Below, in pieces: positions 19,801 through 22,800 of a stretch of DNA of 64,000 nucleotides. Source of the stretch: Escherichia coli (GTDB lineage Bacteria > Pseudomonadota > Gammaproteobacteria > Enterobacterales > Enterobacteriaceae). Each line of letters begins with the position of its first letter. The stretch's first letter is position 1. Location of the stretch: NCBI RefSeq assembly GCF_045037415.1, contig NZ_CP173440.1; one strand, 5' to 3'. Position numbers: made by a program.

Positions 19801-22800
19801 CCCTCAAGCTGTTCCAGCGTGCACGGGTCCAACGCTTCTTCGTCAAAAAGCGTGATGATATTGAGCGTGCCACTTTTCTGCACTGCCTCGATCAGATCGA
19901 TATATTGGCCATCGATTTCAGCATACACGGCGTTTTTCGCGACGGAAGAATCGATACTTTCCGCGACGTTCTGCAACGTGGTCCCTTTTCTGACGAGCTT
20001 CAGAGAGCCATCAGGAAGAGTAAAGGTGAGAGGTTCTGACTCTGTTATAAGCGCTTCTGACATTTTCGTATCCCGACATAGCTCAGTGATTAACAGCAAC
20101 TATGTTGCATTAACCCACAAATTAACGCAACCTTGTTGCATTAAAAGCGTCACTAGGGAGTGCCTGAATATGTTAAGGGAAAGCATGGAAATGTTATTAA
20201 ATGGTAAAGATAATCTTTGCCATTTAAATACGTCTCACGCTAAGGCATACAATTTACAGTATGATATAACGTATAACTGATAACTAATAACTAACTACGA
20301 TTCTGTCAGATGGAGAAAATGTTTCAACTTTTGCTCGCCTTGAGAACGGTGTTAAGCGCCATCGCAAAAGACTGAACATATCTGGATAGACATTATCAAA
20401 TGAAAAACAAAAGGTTACACACCCCCCTCCTGCCAGCGGAATGACAAAGAACATGGTGGGATAGCGAATACAGACGGAAGAGGTAATATAAAATGAAAAA
20501 GCGCATTGCCTGCCTGCTTTCATTCCTGCTTTCATTGTATACCTGTACAGCACTCGCCAGGCATCAACAACTAATGCACAATGTATACGATACGCAAGAA
20601 AGCCAGAGCAAAGTTAACGAAATCCTGTCCGCCGTCTCTTTTCACGGGAATGAACTTAGCTATGGCGAACGTATCGCTGAGATATCTTCCCGTTTCCTCG
20701 GAACGCCTTATCAGGCGCATACACTTATTGGATCATCTTTGATGCAAGAGAGGCTGGTCACTAACCCCAGTACCGTGGATTGTTTTACTTTTATTGATTA
20801 TGTTCGCTCCATGGCGCACGCCAGTAGCTGGCAAACTTATGTATCTGAACTTGTTAAGACCCGTTATACAAACGGGATGATTGATTTTACTGGCAGAAAA
20901 CATTTTTTCACGGACTGGGCGGTCACATCTCCGCGAAATGCACAAGATGTTACTCAGGACATCAGCCCGTATACTATTACTGTCAACAAACGGCTAAACC
21001 AAAAGAATAAAAGACAAGAATATGTTAAGGGTCTCGGCATTATCTCACGCCGGATAAGCTATATACCGGCTTCTGCAATAGATAAAGAGGTAATAAATAA
21101 ACTGAAAACAGGTGATTATGTGGGTATTTATTCAACAAAAAGAGGACTGGATGTTTCACATGTTGGGATCATTATCAAAGACCACAATAACATCTGGTTC
21201 AGAAATGCATCGTCATTAGCGAAAAACAGAAAGGTAGTTGACTCACCTTTTATTAGATACATGGCTACAAAACCGGGTATTGTAGTTTTACGAGAGAAAA
21301 CAGATCAATACCCCTGAACAGTAGAATAGTGTGTCAGGCAATAGCGCCTTTACCCACTCCCTCAAAGGCATGGACTTCTATTTTCGCTGCGGGTAAACCG
21401 TGCTCAATTGATTGCCTGATAAATAAAGCCAGTGACTCAACCGTGGTATCACACGGCAGAATATCTACTACCTCAGAACAAAGCATGATTTCAAAGTATC
21501 CCTGAGAACTTCGCCAGGAAGAACATGTCAGCCCCTTATGCCAGTATGTAACGGCACGCGGTGAAAGTGTTGTCACTGTAACGACATCTTCCCGGCTTAA
21601 CAGATAAGCGTTATTCCATCGCGTTGCCCACTCCTGTTCCCACATATGGCTTCGCTCACCATCCACAAAAATTCTGATCGCAGAGCGATGCCCATGCGCT
21701 ATTCTCTGGCAATTTCCGCGGTGTTTTTTCAGTCCATGCGAGTAATGATAACTGTCACCACTAATACTTTCCGGCCGTAACGTTATCGTTATGTCTTTTA
21801 CTCCCTGCGGCAAACACGCCAGTAAATGTTTTTCTATTTGGGATTCAAGGCAACGGGAAGTAATATTATCTGCCTGGACCAGCCAGAAACTCTCCTGCGG
21901 CCCGGAAATAAAACACTGGGTCTCCCCATTCTTACGCAGCATGGCGACTTCCGTCGTAGTCCCCGCATGACTAACAATAATATGACTATTTTGTTCCGGC
22001 ACAATCAGGACATGATCGGCCAGTTTATCAATTTCATGTTTGATACTTTTTTTTGCATGTGAGAAATCCATTACCATTGATTCAGCATTCAGATCCCCTT
22101 CAAGAATAATATCAACGATAAGGCTATCGCCAATCAGTCCGGCCTCCGCATCAAGGAAACTAAAATCCATGACCGTCAGATCATTAATAAAAAGTTTCAC
22201 CGCTACCTCTTTAGTAAAACAGAAAAGCCTCCTCCGCAAAAGGATTGATGAGGCAAGTATCATTTTGCTACATTAATAACAAATCGTTAATAATACGGTG
22301 TTATGTTAACGACACCAGCCGAGCCATACTCAGAATTCATTTCGCAACAGCTGATAACCTTCCACCAGTTTGACATTAGTGCTGGCGACTTCTTCTGAAA
22401 ATTGTAAAGAAGCGGGATCCACTTTCGAATAACTTTTAAGATCGGAATCTGGCCCCACGCGTTCCGTTGATGGAATATAGGTGTTCTCAGGCAAGGTAAC
22501 GCCATCCACAACTGCATTATAGCGAATAACACAACCCGTCTGAATATGACAGTTAAACAACACACTGTTGAATCCAATAAATACCCGCTCGTCAACCTGA
22601 CAGGGGCCATGCACTATTGCACGGTGGGCAATAGATGTTCCGCTTCCTATCGTCACTGGCGCGCCGCTTTTTGAGTGAATAACCACTCCGTCCTGAATAT
22701 TAGAGTGGGAATGGATAATGATAGGATCCATATCCCCGTCTGCATTTAGCTCGTCAGCACGGATAACCGCATAGGGTCCGACGTAAACATAATCATGAAT

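What the first reader, a model, noticed from the sequence alone, without database searches (positions are those of the whole stretch)
20104..20144. A second palindromic operator (TTAAYGCAAC-N3/4-GTTGCAWTAA), distinct from the Zur box, at two island promoters
Seen in the sequence: upstream of the thrS'-M14-pyrC-hemB operon there is no canonical Zur box. Instead there are three copies of a GTTGCATTAA-type half site (20104-20114, 20122-20131 inverted, 20135-20144). They include the palindrome TTAACGCAAC-ctt-GTTGCATTAA. A closely related palindrome, TTAATGCAA-tcaa-GTTGCAATAA, sits in the 97-bp divergent promoter between the degenerate COG0523 gene and the Fur-family gene at 25598-25620. It occurs again in the duplicate at 63892-63914. 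A related GTTGCATTAT lies at 60931-60940.

Inference: the island encodes two divergent Fur-family proteins in addition to whatever host Zur recognises the TGTTATGTTATAACA boxes. One of them may use this second operator. That would give a two-tier (host Zur plus island regulator) circuit, including autoregulation of the fur-like/cysS transcript.
Basis: partly seen in the sequence, partly recalled or inferred. Interest (0 to 1): 0.6.

Follow-up and report, generated by a model that had tools for sequence, protein, structure and literature searches.

The report
Second, betaproteobacterial-type Zur operator in island
The palindrome is real and is the zinc-repressor (Zur) binding site of the kind used by Betaproteobacteria. 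It was carried into a Klebsiella plasmid island together with a matching Fur-family regulator gene, so the island appears to use two different Zur operator types side by side.

Summary
The window (a pLVPK-like Klebsiella pneumoniae plasmid) has four 23-bp palindromes TTAAYGCAAC-N3-GTTGCRWTAA. Two lie in tandem before thrS'-M14-pyrC-hemB (20091-20113, 20122-20144). One lies in the COG0523/fur-cysS divergent promoter (25598-25620), and its duplicate is at 63892-63914.

A matrix built only from eight published betaproteobacterial Zur sites (Haas 2009) scores these four at 21-24 bits, about the range of its own training sites (22.3-27.7); the next best window hit is 12. The gammaproteobacterial Zur matrix scores them below zero.

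Homologs of the adjacent Fur-family gene (25669-26121) were recovered at 38 genomic loci. 35 of these carry the box, often in the regulator's own promoter or before znuACB, ZIP/COG0523, ZrgA or zinc-paralog operons. That is 68 hits against about 1.4 in shuffles.

The regulator groups with a Cupriavidus-type Zur rather than with E. coli Zur. So the operator is not new. What appears undescribed is an enterobacterial mobile island that keeps a foreign Zur and its own operators beside host-type Zur boxes.

Binding, zinc dependence and the promoter at 20.1 kb are inferred, not shown. The GTTGCATTAT at 60931 is not a member.

The parts
20091..20113 (.). Beta-type Zur box, proximal to thrS' (TAACAGCAACTATGTTGCATTAA). 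It ends 28 bp upstream of the thrS' ATG at 20063.
   Evidence: 21.4 bits with a matrix built only from published betaproteobacterial Zur sites. Identical in Kluyvera L005 and Tatumella L006 while the flanks diverge.
20122..20144 (.). Beta-type Zur box, distal (TTAACGCAACCTTGTTGCATTAA). Its centre is 31 bp from the centre of the proximal box.
   Evidence: 23.9 bits. GTTGCGTT is invariant in all six aligned thrS promoters.
25598..25620 (.). Beta-type Zur box in the 97-bp divergent promoter between COG0523a and fur1 (TTAATGCAATCAAGTTGCAATAA).
   Evidence: 23.6 bits. It overlaps the minus-strand -10 TATTAT (25622-25617). It contains the plus-strand TTGCAA (25612-25617) that lies 17 bp before TGcCAAAAT. 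Its centre sits 59-62 bp (44 bp in L008) before the regulator's ATG in Tatumella, Shimwellia and Erwinia.
63892..63914 (.). The same box in the partial second copy of the COG0523a/fur1 module.
   Evidence: 62651-64000 is 97.6% identical to 24357-25706.
25669..26121 (+). Fur#1, a 150-aa Fur-family protein and the proposed cognate regulator (a betaproteobacterial-lineage Zur-like repressor).
   Evidence: PF01475 homologs. Two invariant CxxC pairs. Homologs lie in znuACB-fur and COG0523/ZIP/ZrgA contexts behind the same box. It groups with a Cupriavidus-type Zur and not with E. coli Zur.
26203..27585 (+). cysS paralog, downstream of fur1 (presumed fur1-cysS transcript).
   Evidence: TIGR00435 at 568 bits; annotation.
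24372..25571 (-). COG0523 GTPase (COG0523a), divergent from fur1. Its promoter is overlapped by the 25598-25620 box.
   Evidence: cobW and CobW_C Pfam domains; promoter scan.
15789..20063 (-). Operon thrS' (19062-20063, internally deleted), M14 peptidase (18218-19069), pyrC paralog (16875-18221), hemB paralog (15789-16811). This is the presumed target of the tandem boxes.
   Evidence: The same gene order and boxes occur in Kluyvera, Tatumella, L008 and Erwinia.
62666..63865 (-). Second copy of COG0523a. The second fur1 copy starts at 63963 and is cut by the window end.
24328..24350 (.). Contrast tier: gamma-type Zur box before dksA2-folE2-cam.
   Evidence: 27.2 bits with the gamma matrix and 0.4 with the beta matrix. 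Listed by Haas 2009.
27618..27640 (.). Contrast tier: gamma-type Zur box before the oxidoreductase/FeoB-like genes.
   Evidence: 23.2 bits with the gamma matrix and -3.8 with the beta matrix.
32391..32413 (.). Contrast tier: gamma-type Zur box between hisI-zigA and fur2.
   Evidence: 25.9 bits with the gamma matrix. Listed by Haas 2009.
32520..33020 (+). Fur#2, an E. coli-Zur-like regulator that retains the Tyr45 equivalent (ISAYQ).
   Evidence: Best solved relative is E. coli Zur 4mtd at 9e-19.

Best explanation
The palindromes are operators of the betaproteobacterial Zur type, with core TGCAAC-N3-GTTGCA. The island-encoded Fur-family protein Fur#1 (25669-26121) most likely binds them as a metal-loaded dimer, one dimer per 23-bp box.

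At the COG0523a/fur1 divergent promoter, one box overlaps the -10 of the COG0523a promoter and the -35 of the fur1-cysS promoter. Binding there would repress both, including the regulator's own transcript.

At the thrS'-M14-pyrC-hemB operon, two tandem boxes lie 28-81 bp upstream of the start codon. By analogy with the two-box cobW1 operon of Cupriavidus metallidurans, this would give tighter repression that lifts only under severe zinc shortage.

The other island promoters carry gammaproteobacterial-type boxes. The host Zur and/or the island's E. coli-Zur-like Fur#2 can read those. The island therefore carries two non-overlapping operator types.

Shown here: the sites, their class, their conservation, their co-occurrence with the regulator clade, and the zinc-related gene context. 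Inferred: physical binding by Fur#1, zinc as the signal, repression, and the exact promoter at 20.1 kb.
For: 1. A matrix built only from the eight published beta Zur sites scores the four window sites at 21.4-23.9 bits. Its training range is 22.3-27.7, and the next best window hit is 12.0.
2. The gamma matrix gives -4.6 to -10.7 bits at these sites. The beta matrix gives 0.4 or less at the gamma boxes.
3. Across 38 loci encoding Fur#1 homologs (502 kb) there are 68 hits of 15 bits or more, against 0-2 per shuffle. 35 of the 38 loci have at least one hit.
4. In Betaproteobacteria the box precedes znuA-znuC-znuB-fur (L025/L026), lies between ZIP-COG0523 and fur-ZrgA-ABC-FtsX (L027), and precedes zigA-like and cysS/cam/pyrC clusters in Paraburkholderia.
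5. In thrS promoters from Klebsiella to Erwinia, the two boxes are the conserved islands in otherwise unalignable DNA.
6. Variable arm positions change independently between the two arms (position 5/19: C-A 17, T-A 16, C-G 8, T-G 8). This is what protein half-sites give, not an RNA helix.
7. Metagenome contig L109 carries the exact published Rmet_0128 site 49 bp before a 169-aa Fur-family ORF followed by COG0523. That ORF's best matches in the comparison set are Fur#1-clade members (44-74 bits, overlapping BsPerR at 45 at the low end, against 37 for E. coli Zur). It joins them in a neighbour-joining tree, apart from E. coli Zur, the Xanthomonas-type Zur and Fur#2.
8. In C. metallidurans, operons with two Zur boxes are expressed only under extreme zinc starvation (PMC10882993, PMC11340326).
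Against: - No binding or expression data exist for this island. A 2026 preprint states that the K. pneumoniae Zur regulon had not previously been elucidated, and it used a different strain, KPNIH1; I did not check whether that strain carries the island.
- Fur#1 is only 30% identical to the Cupriavidus-type Zur.
- Fur#1 lacks all four E. coli Zur sensing ligands (H77->Q73, C88->F84, H96->V92, E111->P105). It also lacks the His-rich stretch before the first CxxC that the Cupriavidus protein has. Its effector is therefore not established.
- It scores far below NCBIfam's Zur cut-off (31.6 against 167 bits).
- No sigma-70-like promoter overlapping the boxes was found at 20.1 kb. The only minus-strand match is about 160 bp upstream of the distal box.
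- Paraburkholderia homologs of the regulator have no box in their own promoters, so autoregulation is not universal.
Confidence: 0.72

Rival explanations
1. Fur#1 binds these boxes but senses something other than zinc, for example nickel, cobalt or iron. On this view it is a Nur-like or otherwise re-specialised Fur-family regulator.
For: - The box core has the 6-5-6 geometry of the Streptomyces Nur box tTGCaa-N5-ttGCAA (PMC2691836). The 25598 site reads ATGCAA-N5-TTGCAA.
- Fur#1 lacks the canonical Zur sensing ligands.
- COG0523 proteins of Cupriavidus sit at a zinc/cobalt crossroads (PMC11340326).
Against: - Every target and neighbour is part of the zinc-starvation repertoire: znuACB, ZIP, ZrgA, COG0523/ZigA, and the folE2, cam, pyrC, cysS, hemB and hisI paralogs.
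- No nik or sod genes are present.
- The profile of the clade matches Nur (3eyy, 7.6e-10) no better than other Fur-family structures. The best match is 7dh7, a Fur-family regulator that I believe to be a Xanthomonas Zur (2e-13).
Confidence: 0.12
2. There is no separate tier. The host K. pneumoniae Zur (or Fur#2) also binds these boxes, and Fur#1 is redundant or inactive.
For: - Both box classes are 23-bp palindromes that share AATG....CATT-like outer positions.
- Haas 2009 treated the whole pLVPK cluster as Zur-regulated.
Against: - The gamma-type matrix gives negative scores at all four sites.
- E. coli-type Zur reads bases through Tyr45 and Arg65 (PMC6103462). Fur#2 keeps the Tyr, but the Fur#1 clade has His-Asp/Glu at that position.
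- The box tracks Fur#1 homologs across phyla, not gamma-type Zur.
- fur1 is intact and 97-100% conserved on several hundred of the 689 matching plasmids.
Confidence: 0.07
3. In the enterobacterial host the sites act as CytR operators, or cross-talk with CytR. GTTGCATT is the CytR octamer.
For: Published CytR consensus forms include TGCAA-N2-3-TTGCA and inverted octamers AATGYCAAC-GC-GTTGCATT with short spacers (PMC3454398). The 20122 site reads AACGCAAC-CTT-GTTGCATT.
Against: - There are no CRP-like sites (up to 3 mismatches of 10) in either promoter, so the CRP-CytR-CRP cassette is absent.
- CytR orthologs are confined to Enterobacterales and Vibrionales, yet the box is conserved in Betaproteobacteria.
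- The target genes have nothing to do with nucleoside use.
Confidence: 0.04
4. The palindromes act as RNA hairpins (leader structures or terminators), or they are chance or repeat debris.
For: The thrS' leader region folds better than shuffles (z = -3.0). This is expected for any pair of palindromes.
Against: - There is no compensatory change between arms in 50 distinct sites.
- No Rfam match was found.
- The arm sequence itself, not merely its pairing, is conserved across classes of bacteria.
- The 25598 site lies in a divergent promoter, so at most one of the two transcripts could carry it.
- Chance is excluded.
Confidence: 0.02

Closest known systems
Zur regulon and Zur box of Cupriavidus metallidurans, Ralstonia and Methylobacillus (Haas et al. 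2009 Additional file 5; Schmidt 2014 and Buetof 2017, known here only through citations)
   Same: - The same 23-bp palindrome core TGCAAC-N3-GTTGCA.
- The same classes of target: COG0523 GTPases, cysS/pyrC/cam/folE2 paralogs, and the regulator's own promoter.
- Tandem boxes on the most tightly repressed operon.
- The regulator shares the DRVT(L/V)YR(I/V)L recognition helix and a (S/T)H motif.
   Different: - The host is an enterobacterium and the system is on a mobile island or plasmid.
- The outer positions are TTAA/TTAA rather than the more variable flanks in Cupriavidus.
- Fur#1 is only 30% identical to the Cupriavidus-type Zur and lacks its His-rich sensor stretch.
- It coexists with gamma-type boxes and a second, E. 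coli-like Zur paralog.
Gammaproteobacterial Zur and its box GAAATGTTATAWTATAACATTTC (E. coli Zur, PDB 4mtd)
   Same: - A Fur-family dimeric repressor and a 23-bp palindrome.
- The same physiological theme of zinc-starvation paralogs.
- Boxes of this type are used by the neighbouring island operons.
   Different: - The half-site core is GCAAC rather than GTTAT.
- Matrix scores are mutually exclusive.
- Tyr45 and the sensing ligands H77/C88/H96/E111 are not conserved in Fur#1.
Nur box of Streptomyces coelicolor (tTGCaa-N5-ttGCAA, 6-5-6)
   Same: A Fur-family operator with the same hexamer core and 5-bp spacer.
   Different: The effector is nickel, the targets are nik and sodF, and the organism is an actinobacterium. 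Fur#1 is no closer to Nur than to other Fur-family proteins.
CytR operator (inverted GTTGCATT octamers)
   Same: The half-site sequence is nearly identical.
   Different: CytR is a LacI-family repressor that needs flanking CRP sites and exists only in Enterobacterales and Vibrionales. Neither condition fits here.

Membership tests
Betaproteobacterial-type Zur box (Cupriavidus/Ralstonia/Methylobacillus regulog) | 23-bp palindrome matching the TGCAAC-N3-GTTGCA profile | tested here: met
   A matrix from 8 published sites gives 21.4, 23.9, 23.6 and 23.6 bits. Its training range is 22.3-27.7, and the next window hit is 12.0.
Betaproteobacterial-type Zur box (Cupriavidus/Ralstonia/Methylobacillus regulog) | Located in promoters of zinc-starvation genes and of the regulator gene itself | tested here: met
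   The boxes lie before thrS'-M14-pyrC-hemB and between COG0523a and fur1-cysS. The same holds in 35 of 38 related loci.
Betaproteobacterial-type Zur box (Cupriavidus/Ralstonia/Methylobacillus regulog) | Cognate regulator of the same lineage as C. metallidurans Zur (Rmet_0128) | tested here: inconclusive
   The Cupriavidus-type Zur was recovered through its published site (L109). It is 30% identical to Fur#1 (2e-15). It is sister to the Fur#1 clade in a rough neighbour-joining tree. This is the same broad lineage, but orthology is not shown.
Betaproteobacterial-type Zur box (Cupriavidus/Ralstonia/Methylobacillus regulog) | Zinc-dependent binding of the regulator to the box | not testable with these tools
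   This needs EMSA or footprinting with and without zinc.
Fur family / Zur subfamily (for Fur#1) | Fur-family fold with a structural Cys4 site (two CxxC pairs) | tested here: met
   PF01475 on homologs. C97, C100, C141 and C144 are invariant. Solved Fur-family structures match at 2e-13 to 1e-9.
Fur family / Zur subfamily (for Fur#1) | E. coli-type Zur sensing ligands (H77, C88, H96, E111) and the base-contacting Tyr45 | tested here: not met
   The alignment gives Q73, F84, V92 and P105, with His42-Asp43 in place of Ala44-Tyr45.
Fur family / Zur subfamily (for Fur#1) | Reaches the curated NCBIfam Zur model cut-off | tested here: not met
   PRK11639 scores 31.6 bits against a cut-off of 167.
Gammaproteobacterial Zur box | Matches the GAAATGTTATAWTATAACATTTC profile | tested here: not met
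   -4.6 to -10.7 bits at the four sites, against 20.7-32.3 for the training sites.
CytR operator cassette | Inverted or direct GTTGCATT-like octamers with a short spacer | tested here: met
   AACGCAAC-CTT-GTTGCATT at 20124-20142. Consensus forms are from PMC3454398.
CytR operator cassette | Flanking CRP sites, and occurrence only in CytR-encoding taxa | tested here: not met
   No CRP-like site with up to 3 mismatches lies in either promoter. The box is conserved in Betaproteobacteria, which lack CytR according to PMC3454398.
Nur box / Nur regulon | 6-5-6 TTGCAA-N5-TTGCAA core | tested here: met
   ATGCAA-TCAAG-TTGCAA at 25601-25617. Consensus is from PMC2691836.
Nur box / Nur regulon | Nickel-related targets, and a regulator closest to Nur | tested here: not met
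   The targets are zinc-starvation genes. Nur 3eyy at 7.6e-10 is not the best structural relative.

The most novel reading that the evidence does not exclude
The island carries an orthogonal zinc-starvation circuit: a horizontally acquired, betaproteobacterial-lineage Zur with a remodelled sensor site and private operators. In an enterobacterial host this would give a subset of paralog genes (thrS/pyrC/hemB, cysS, one COG0523) their own set-point, or even a different metal signal, independent of host Zur.

The same island also records operator turnover. zigA orthologs that are 75-78% identical are read through beta-type boxes in Paraburkholderia but through a gamma-type box here. This would show how transferred regulons are partly assimilated by the host regulator and partly kept under an imported one.
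Probability: 0.3. Interest if true: 0.6.

Novelty: new member of a known kind. Interest (0 to 1): 0.42.

Why it matters
pLVPK-like plasmids mark hypervirulent K. pneumoniae, and zinc withholding is a main host defence. The 2009 survey listed only two gamma-type Zur sites on pLVPK. It left the thrS'-pyrC-hemB operon and the COG0523/fur-cysS promoter without a known control element.

Assigning these promoters to an imported Zur-like regulator with its own operator type has three consequences:
- It completes the regulatory map of the island.
- It predicts that these genes will not respond to a host zur deletion in the way the rest of the island does.
- It gives a natural example of two Zur operator types working in one cell. 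That is useful for studying how Fur-family proteins change DNA specificity (GTTAT against GCAAC half-sites; Ala-Tyr against His-Asp before the recognition helix).

It is not a new kind of system.

Tried and rejected
- Octamer half-site enrichment: GTTGCATT with up to 1 mismatch is not enriched in the window (74 against 80.9 expected). Single half-sites, including 60931, were therefore dropped.
- Promoter scan at 20.1 kb: no sigma-70-like match overlaps the boxes. Manual hexamer hunting gave nothing convincing, so that promoter is left unmapped.
- Primary Cupriavidus papers: PMC5626952 and PMC4187674 are not held. PMC13492112 has no box sequence.
- A full-text search for 'GTTGCAT' plus 'Zur' with match 'anywhere' was useless, because 'zur' matched 'seizure'.
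- Reaching a named Cupriavidus Zur failed by two routes. A third protein search with the L025 homolog returned only 8 unnamed relatives. A tblastn against plasmids returned only enterobacterial plasmids. It succeeded instead by searching metagenome contigs for the published Rmet_0128 operator.
- A conserved GATGTAT(C/G)ATT upstream of Paraburkholderia fur1 homologs was considered as a possible host-type Zur box. It was rejected as most likely a -10 element.
- Rfam scan of 19000-27000 found nothing.
- Structure prediction was not run, because the tool returns no coordinates from which a sensor site could be judged.
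Full report
**Source and setting.** The window is 100% identical to large IncHI1B/IncFIB Klebsiella pneumoniae plasmids of the pLVPK type. 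Positions 15.8-33 kb hold a zinc-starvation island:
- hemB, pyrC, an M14 peptidase and a shortened thrS on the minus strand.
- An AmiA-like DUF1460 gene, a QueD-like gene, cam, folE2 and dksA2.
- A COG0523 GTPase, a 150-aa Fur-family gene (here Fur#1, 25669-26121), cysS, an oxidoreductase and a FeoB-like protein.
- zigA, hisI and a second Fur-family gene (Fur#2, 32520-33020).

Haas et al. 2009 already called this a Zur-regulated cluster on pLVPK. They listed only two Zur sites there, before hisI2-yciC and before dksA2-folE2-cam.

**Check of the observation.** A search with TTAAYGCAA-N5-TTGCAWTAA and up to three mismatches finds four sites: 20091-20113, 20122-20144, 25598-25620 and 63892-63914. 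That is 8 strand-hits against 0.38 expected, and no shuffle reaches 8.
- All sites share one 23-bp geometry.
- The thrS' promoter holds two complete palindromes 31 bp apart, not three half-sites.
- The octamer alone is not enriched in the window, so a lone GTTGCATT such as the one at 60931 means nothing.
- The 60931 position scores -3.9 bits with the beta-type matrix. It overlaps a sub-threshold gamma-type-like box in front of a hisI fragment that belongs to a partial second island copy.
- No gamma-type box lies in the thrS'/DUF1460 intergenic region.

**What the motif is.** Additional file 5 of Haas 2009 lists the following as Zur sites of Betaproteobacteria:
- aAAATGCAACATTGTTGCATTat (Methylobacillus).
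- gAAATGCAACAAgGTTGCATTTa (C. metallidurans Rmet_1098, operon yciC-folE2-cysS2-queD2-cam-pyrC2).
- Further sites before the zur and yciC genes of Cupriavidus and Ralstonia.

A weight matrix built from those eight sites alone, with nothing from this window, scores the four window sites at 21.4-23.9 bits. Its own training sites score 22.3-27.7, and the next best position in 64 kb scores 12.0. A matrix from 33 gammaproteobacterial sites of the same table recovers five strong boxes: 24328, 27618, 32391, 36534 and 57541 (23-27 bits). It gives negative scores at the beta-type sites, and the beta matrix gives 0.4 or less at the gamma boxes. The island therefore carries two cleanly separated operator classes.

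**Link to the regulator.** Fur#1 has a narrow set of close relatives in Enterobacterales (56-84% identity). It has a broad set at 30-43% identity, mostly in Betaproteobacteria. One genome scan returned 38 loci.
- In 35 of them the published-site matrix finds at least one box. There are 68 hits of 15 bits or more in 502 kb, against 0-2 in shuffles.
- In most of the enterobacterial and Polynucleobacter-type loci, and in Brachymonas, the box centre lies 16-93 bp before the regulator's start codon.
- In Enterobacterales the position is nearly fixed (44-62 bp) while the 5-bp spacer drifts (TCAAG, TTGTG, CTGAG, TTGAG, CATGA, TTAGA). This is a phylogenetic footprint.
- The gene context in Betaproteobacteria is zinc uptake. 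One arrangement is box, then ZnuA-ZnuC-ZnuB, then the regulator (L025/L026). Another is ZIP transporter and COG0523, two boxes, then the regulator followed by ZrgA, an ABC ATPase and an FtsX permease (L027).
- In Paraburkholderia the boxes, often tandem, precede zigA-like genes and cysS/cam/pyrC/hisI clusters.

For the thrS operon, an alignment from Klebsiella to Erwinia shows the two boxes as the conserved blocks in otherwise unalignable upstream DNA. They are 31 bp apart (window, Kluyvera, Tatumella) or 35 bp apart (the two Erwinia-type loci); only one box was resolved in L008.

**Protein site or RNA helix.** In 50 distinct sites the invariant positions are A3, G6, C7, A8, A9 and their mirror positions. 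The variable arm positions change independently. Position 5/19 shows C-A 17, T-A 16, C-G 8 and T-G 8, exactly the product of the marginals. There is no compensatory change, so these are protein half-sites. Rfam finds nothing. The good folding energy of the leader is what two palindromes give trivially.

**Relation to the studied Zur of Cupriavidus.** The primary papers were not available. I searched metagenome contigs for the operator published for Rmet_0128. One contig (L109) carries the exact 23-mer TTGGTGCAACTGAATTGCATCGG 49 bp before a 169-aa Fur-family ORF. That distance matches the table. The ORF is followed by a His-rich COG0523, dksA and a second COG0523.
- This Cupriavidus-type Zur is 30% identical to Fur#1 (2e-15). 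It matches the clade profile with 99.3% probability.
- Its best matches in a reference set are all Fur#1-clade members (44-74 bits). E. coli Zur scores 37 and the 7dh7 protein 32.
- In a rough neighbour-joining tree it is sister to the Fur#1 clade. Fur#2 joins E. coli Zur and 7dh7.
- Shared marks are DRVT(L/V)YR(I/V)L in the recognition helix, an (S/T)H two residues before the position of E. coli Tyr45, and DRxxRF in the wing.
- The review PMC6103462 notes that Tyr45 is one of only two base-contacting residues of E. coli Zur and is confined to few lineages. Fur#2 keeps it (ISAYQ), and Fur#1 has SHDD.

This is a plausible basis for the GTTAT to GCAAC change in half-site, but it is inference.

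**Mechanism.** At 25.6 kb the minus-strand promoter-like match TTGAAT-16-TATTAT (25644-25617) has its -10 inside the box. The start site would also be covered. On the plus strand the box's own TTGCAA (25612-25617) lies 17 bp before TGcCAAAAT, an extended -10-like element that is conserved in Tatumella and Shimwellia. One bound dimer would therefore shut both promoters, including fur1-cysS, which is negative autoregulation.

At 20.1 kb the two boxes occupy -28 to -81 relative to the ATG. I could not identify the promoter, so occlusion there is assumed from position only. In C. metallidurans the one operon with two Zur boxes (cobW1-folE_IB2-cysS2-queD-allB-cam) is expressed only under extreme zinc starvation, whereas one-box genes are partly on at 200 nM zinc. 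By analogy the thrS'-pyrC-hemB operon would be the last to open.

**What is not established.** No experiment addresses this island. A 2026 preprint says the K. pneumoniae Zur regulon had not previously been elucidated, and it used a different strain, KPNIH1; I did not check whether that strain carries the island.
- Fur#1 lacks all four sensing ligands of E. coli Zur.
- Fur#1 also lacks the His-rich stretch that the Cupriavidus protein has before its first CxxC.
- It scores far below the curated Zur model.

Zinc as its signal rests on gene context alone. A different metal remains possible. The box core has the 6-5-6 form of the nickel regulator Nur's operator, although nothing else points to nickel.

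The half-site is also almost the CytR octamer. However, there are no CRP sites, and the motif is conserved in bacteria without CytR. CytR can therefore at most cross-talk in the enterobacterial host.

**Comparison and novelty.** The operator type and the kind of regulator are known. Two things appear undescribed:
- These particular pLVPK promoters belong to the beta-type class.
- An enterobacterial mobile island (several hundred of the 689 matching plasmids carry full-length fur1; chromosomal copies also exist) keeps a foreign-lineage Zur with its own operators next to gamma-type boxes and an E. coli-like Zur paralog.

One further point concerns zigA. Its orthologs are 75-78% identical between this island and Paraburkholderia. 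They sit behind tandem beta boxes in Paraburkholderia and behind a gamma box here. This suggests that part of an imported regulon was re-wired to the host type while part stayed with the imported regulator.

I rate this as a new member of a known kind, of moderate interest.

Noticed in passing
window 19062-20063; L005 366-2354; L011 3670-5697: The island's thrS' (333 aa) keeps the N-terminal TGS-like part and the C-terminal catalytic/anticodon part, but it lacks about 320 residues present in the Kluyvera and Erwinia versions (about 650 aa) behind the same two boxes. It is probably an internally deleted, possibly non-functional ThrRS paralog.
   Followed up: partly
window 60974-64000: There is a partial, rearranged second copy of the island. 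62651-64000 is 97.6% identical to 24357-25706 (COG0523a, operator, start of fur1). 61147-61605 is an inverted zigA 3' fragment. 60974-61144 is a hisI fragment. A methyltransferase gene (61472-62179) lies between them, and a DDE transposase (56332-57300) is nearby.
   Followed up: partly
window 60926-60948: TTAATGTTGCATTATATCATAAC scores 16.7 bits with the gamma Zur matrix (below the training minimum of 20.7) and -3.9 with the beta matrix. It is a decayed or hybrid box before the hisI remnant.
   Followed up: yes
window 57541-57563 and 58000-60809: A strong gamma-type Zur box (25.6 bits) lies about 440 bp before an ABC ATPase / periplasmic binding protein (Peripla_BP_2) / FecCD permease operon. 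This may be a zinc- or metallophore-uptake system under Zur control.
   Followed up: partly
L012, L014, L019, L021 against window 30714-32413: zigA orthologs (75-78% identity) are preceded by tandem beta-type boxes in Paraburkholderia, but by a gamma-type box (through hisI) in the Klebsiella island. This looks like operator turnover after transfer.
   Followed up: partly
window 25669-26121 (Fur#1) and alignment: The Fur#1 clade has no counterpart of the E. coli Zur sensing ligands or of the usual His-rich stretch before the first CxxC. Clade-invariant candidates are H42, D55, R80 and H101, with E96 nearly invariant (GxFECDxCH). Where the sensor site lies is unexplained.
   Followed up: no
L017, L019-L023, L038 (Paraburkholderia/Burkholderia): In these loci the fur1 homolog has no beta-type box in its own promoter. 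Only a conserved GATGTAT(C/G)ATT is present, probably a -10 element. Boxes flank the neighbouring operons instead, so autoregulation is lineage-specific.
   Followed up: partly
L007 (NZ_BAAAHF010000115.1) and L008 (NZ_SZPQ01000059.1): A 1.2-kb contig in a Streptomyces malaysiensis assembly is 98-99% identical at protein level (tblastn) to the Klebsiella COG0523a/fur1 module, which suggests contamination. A contig labelled Martelella alba carries a typical enterobacterial version of the island.
   Followed up: no
window 20262-20290: ATGATATAACGTATAACTGATAAC, upstream of the DUF1460/AmiA-like gene, resembles Zur half-sites but with the wrong spacing. It scores below 10 bits with the gamma matrix. 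How this gene is regulated is unresolved.
   Followed up: partly
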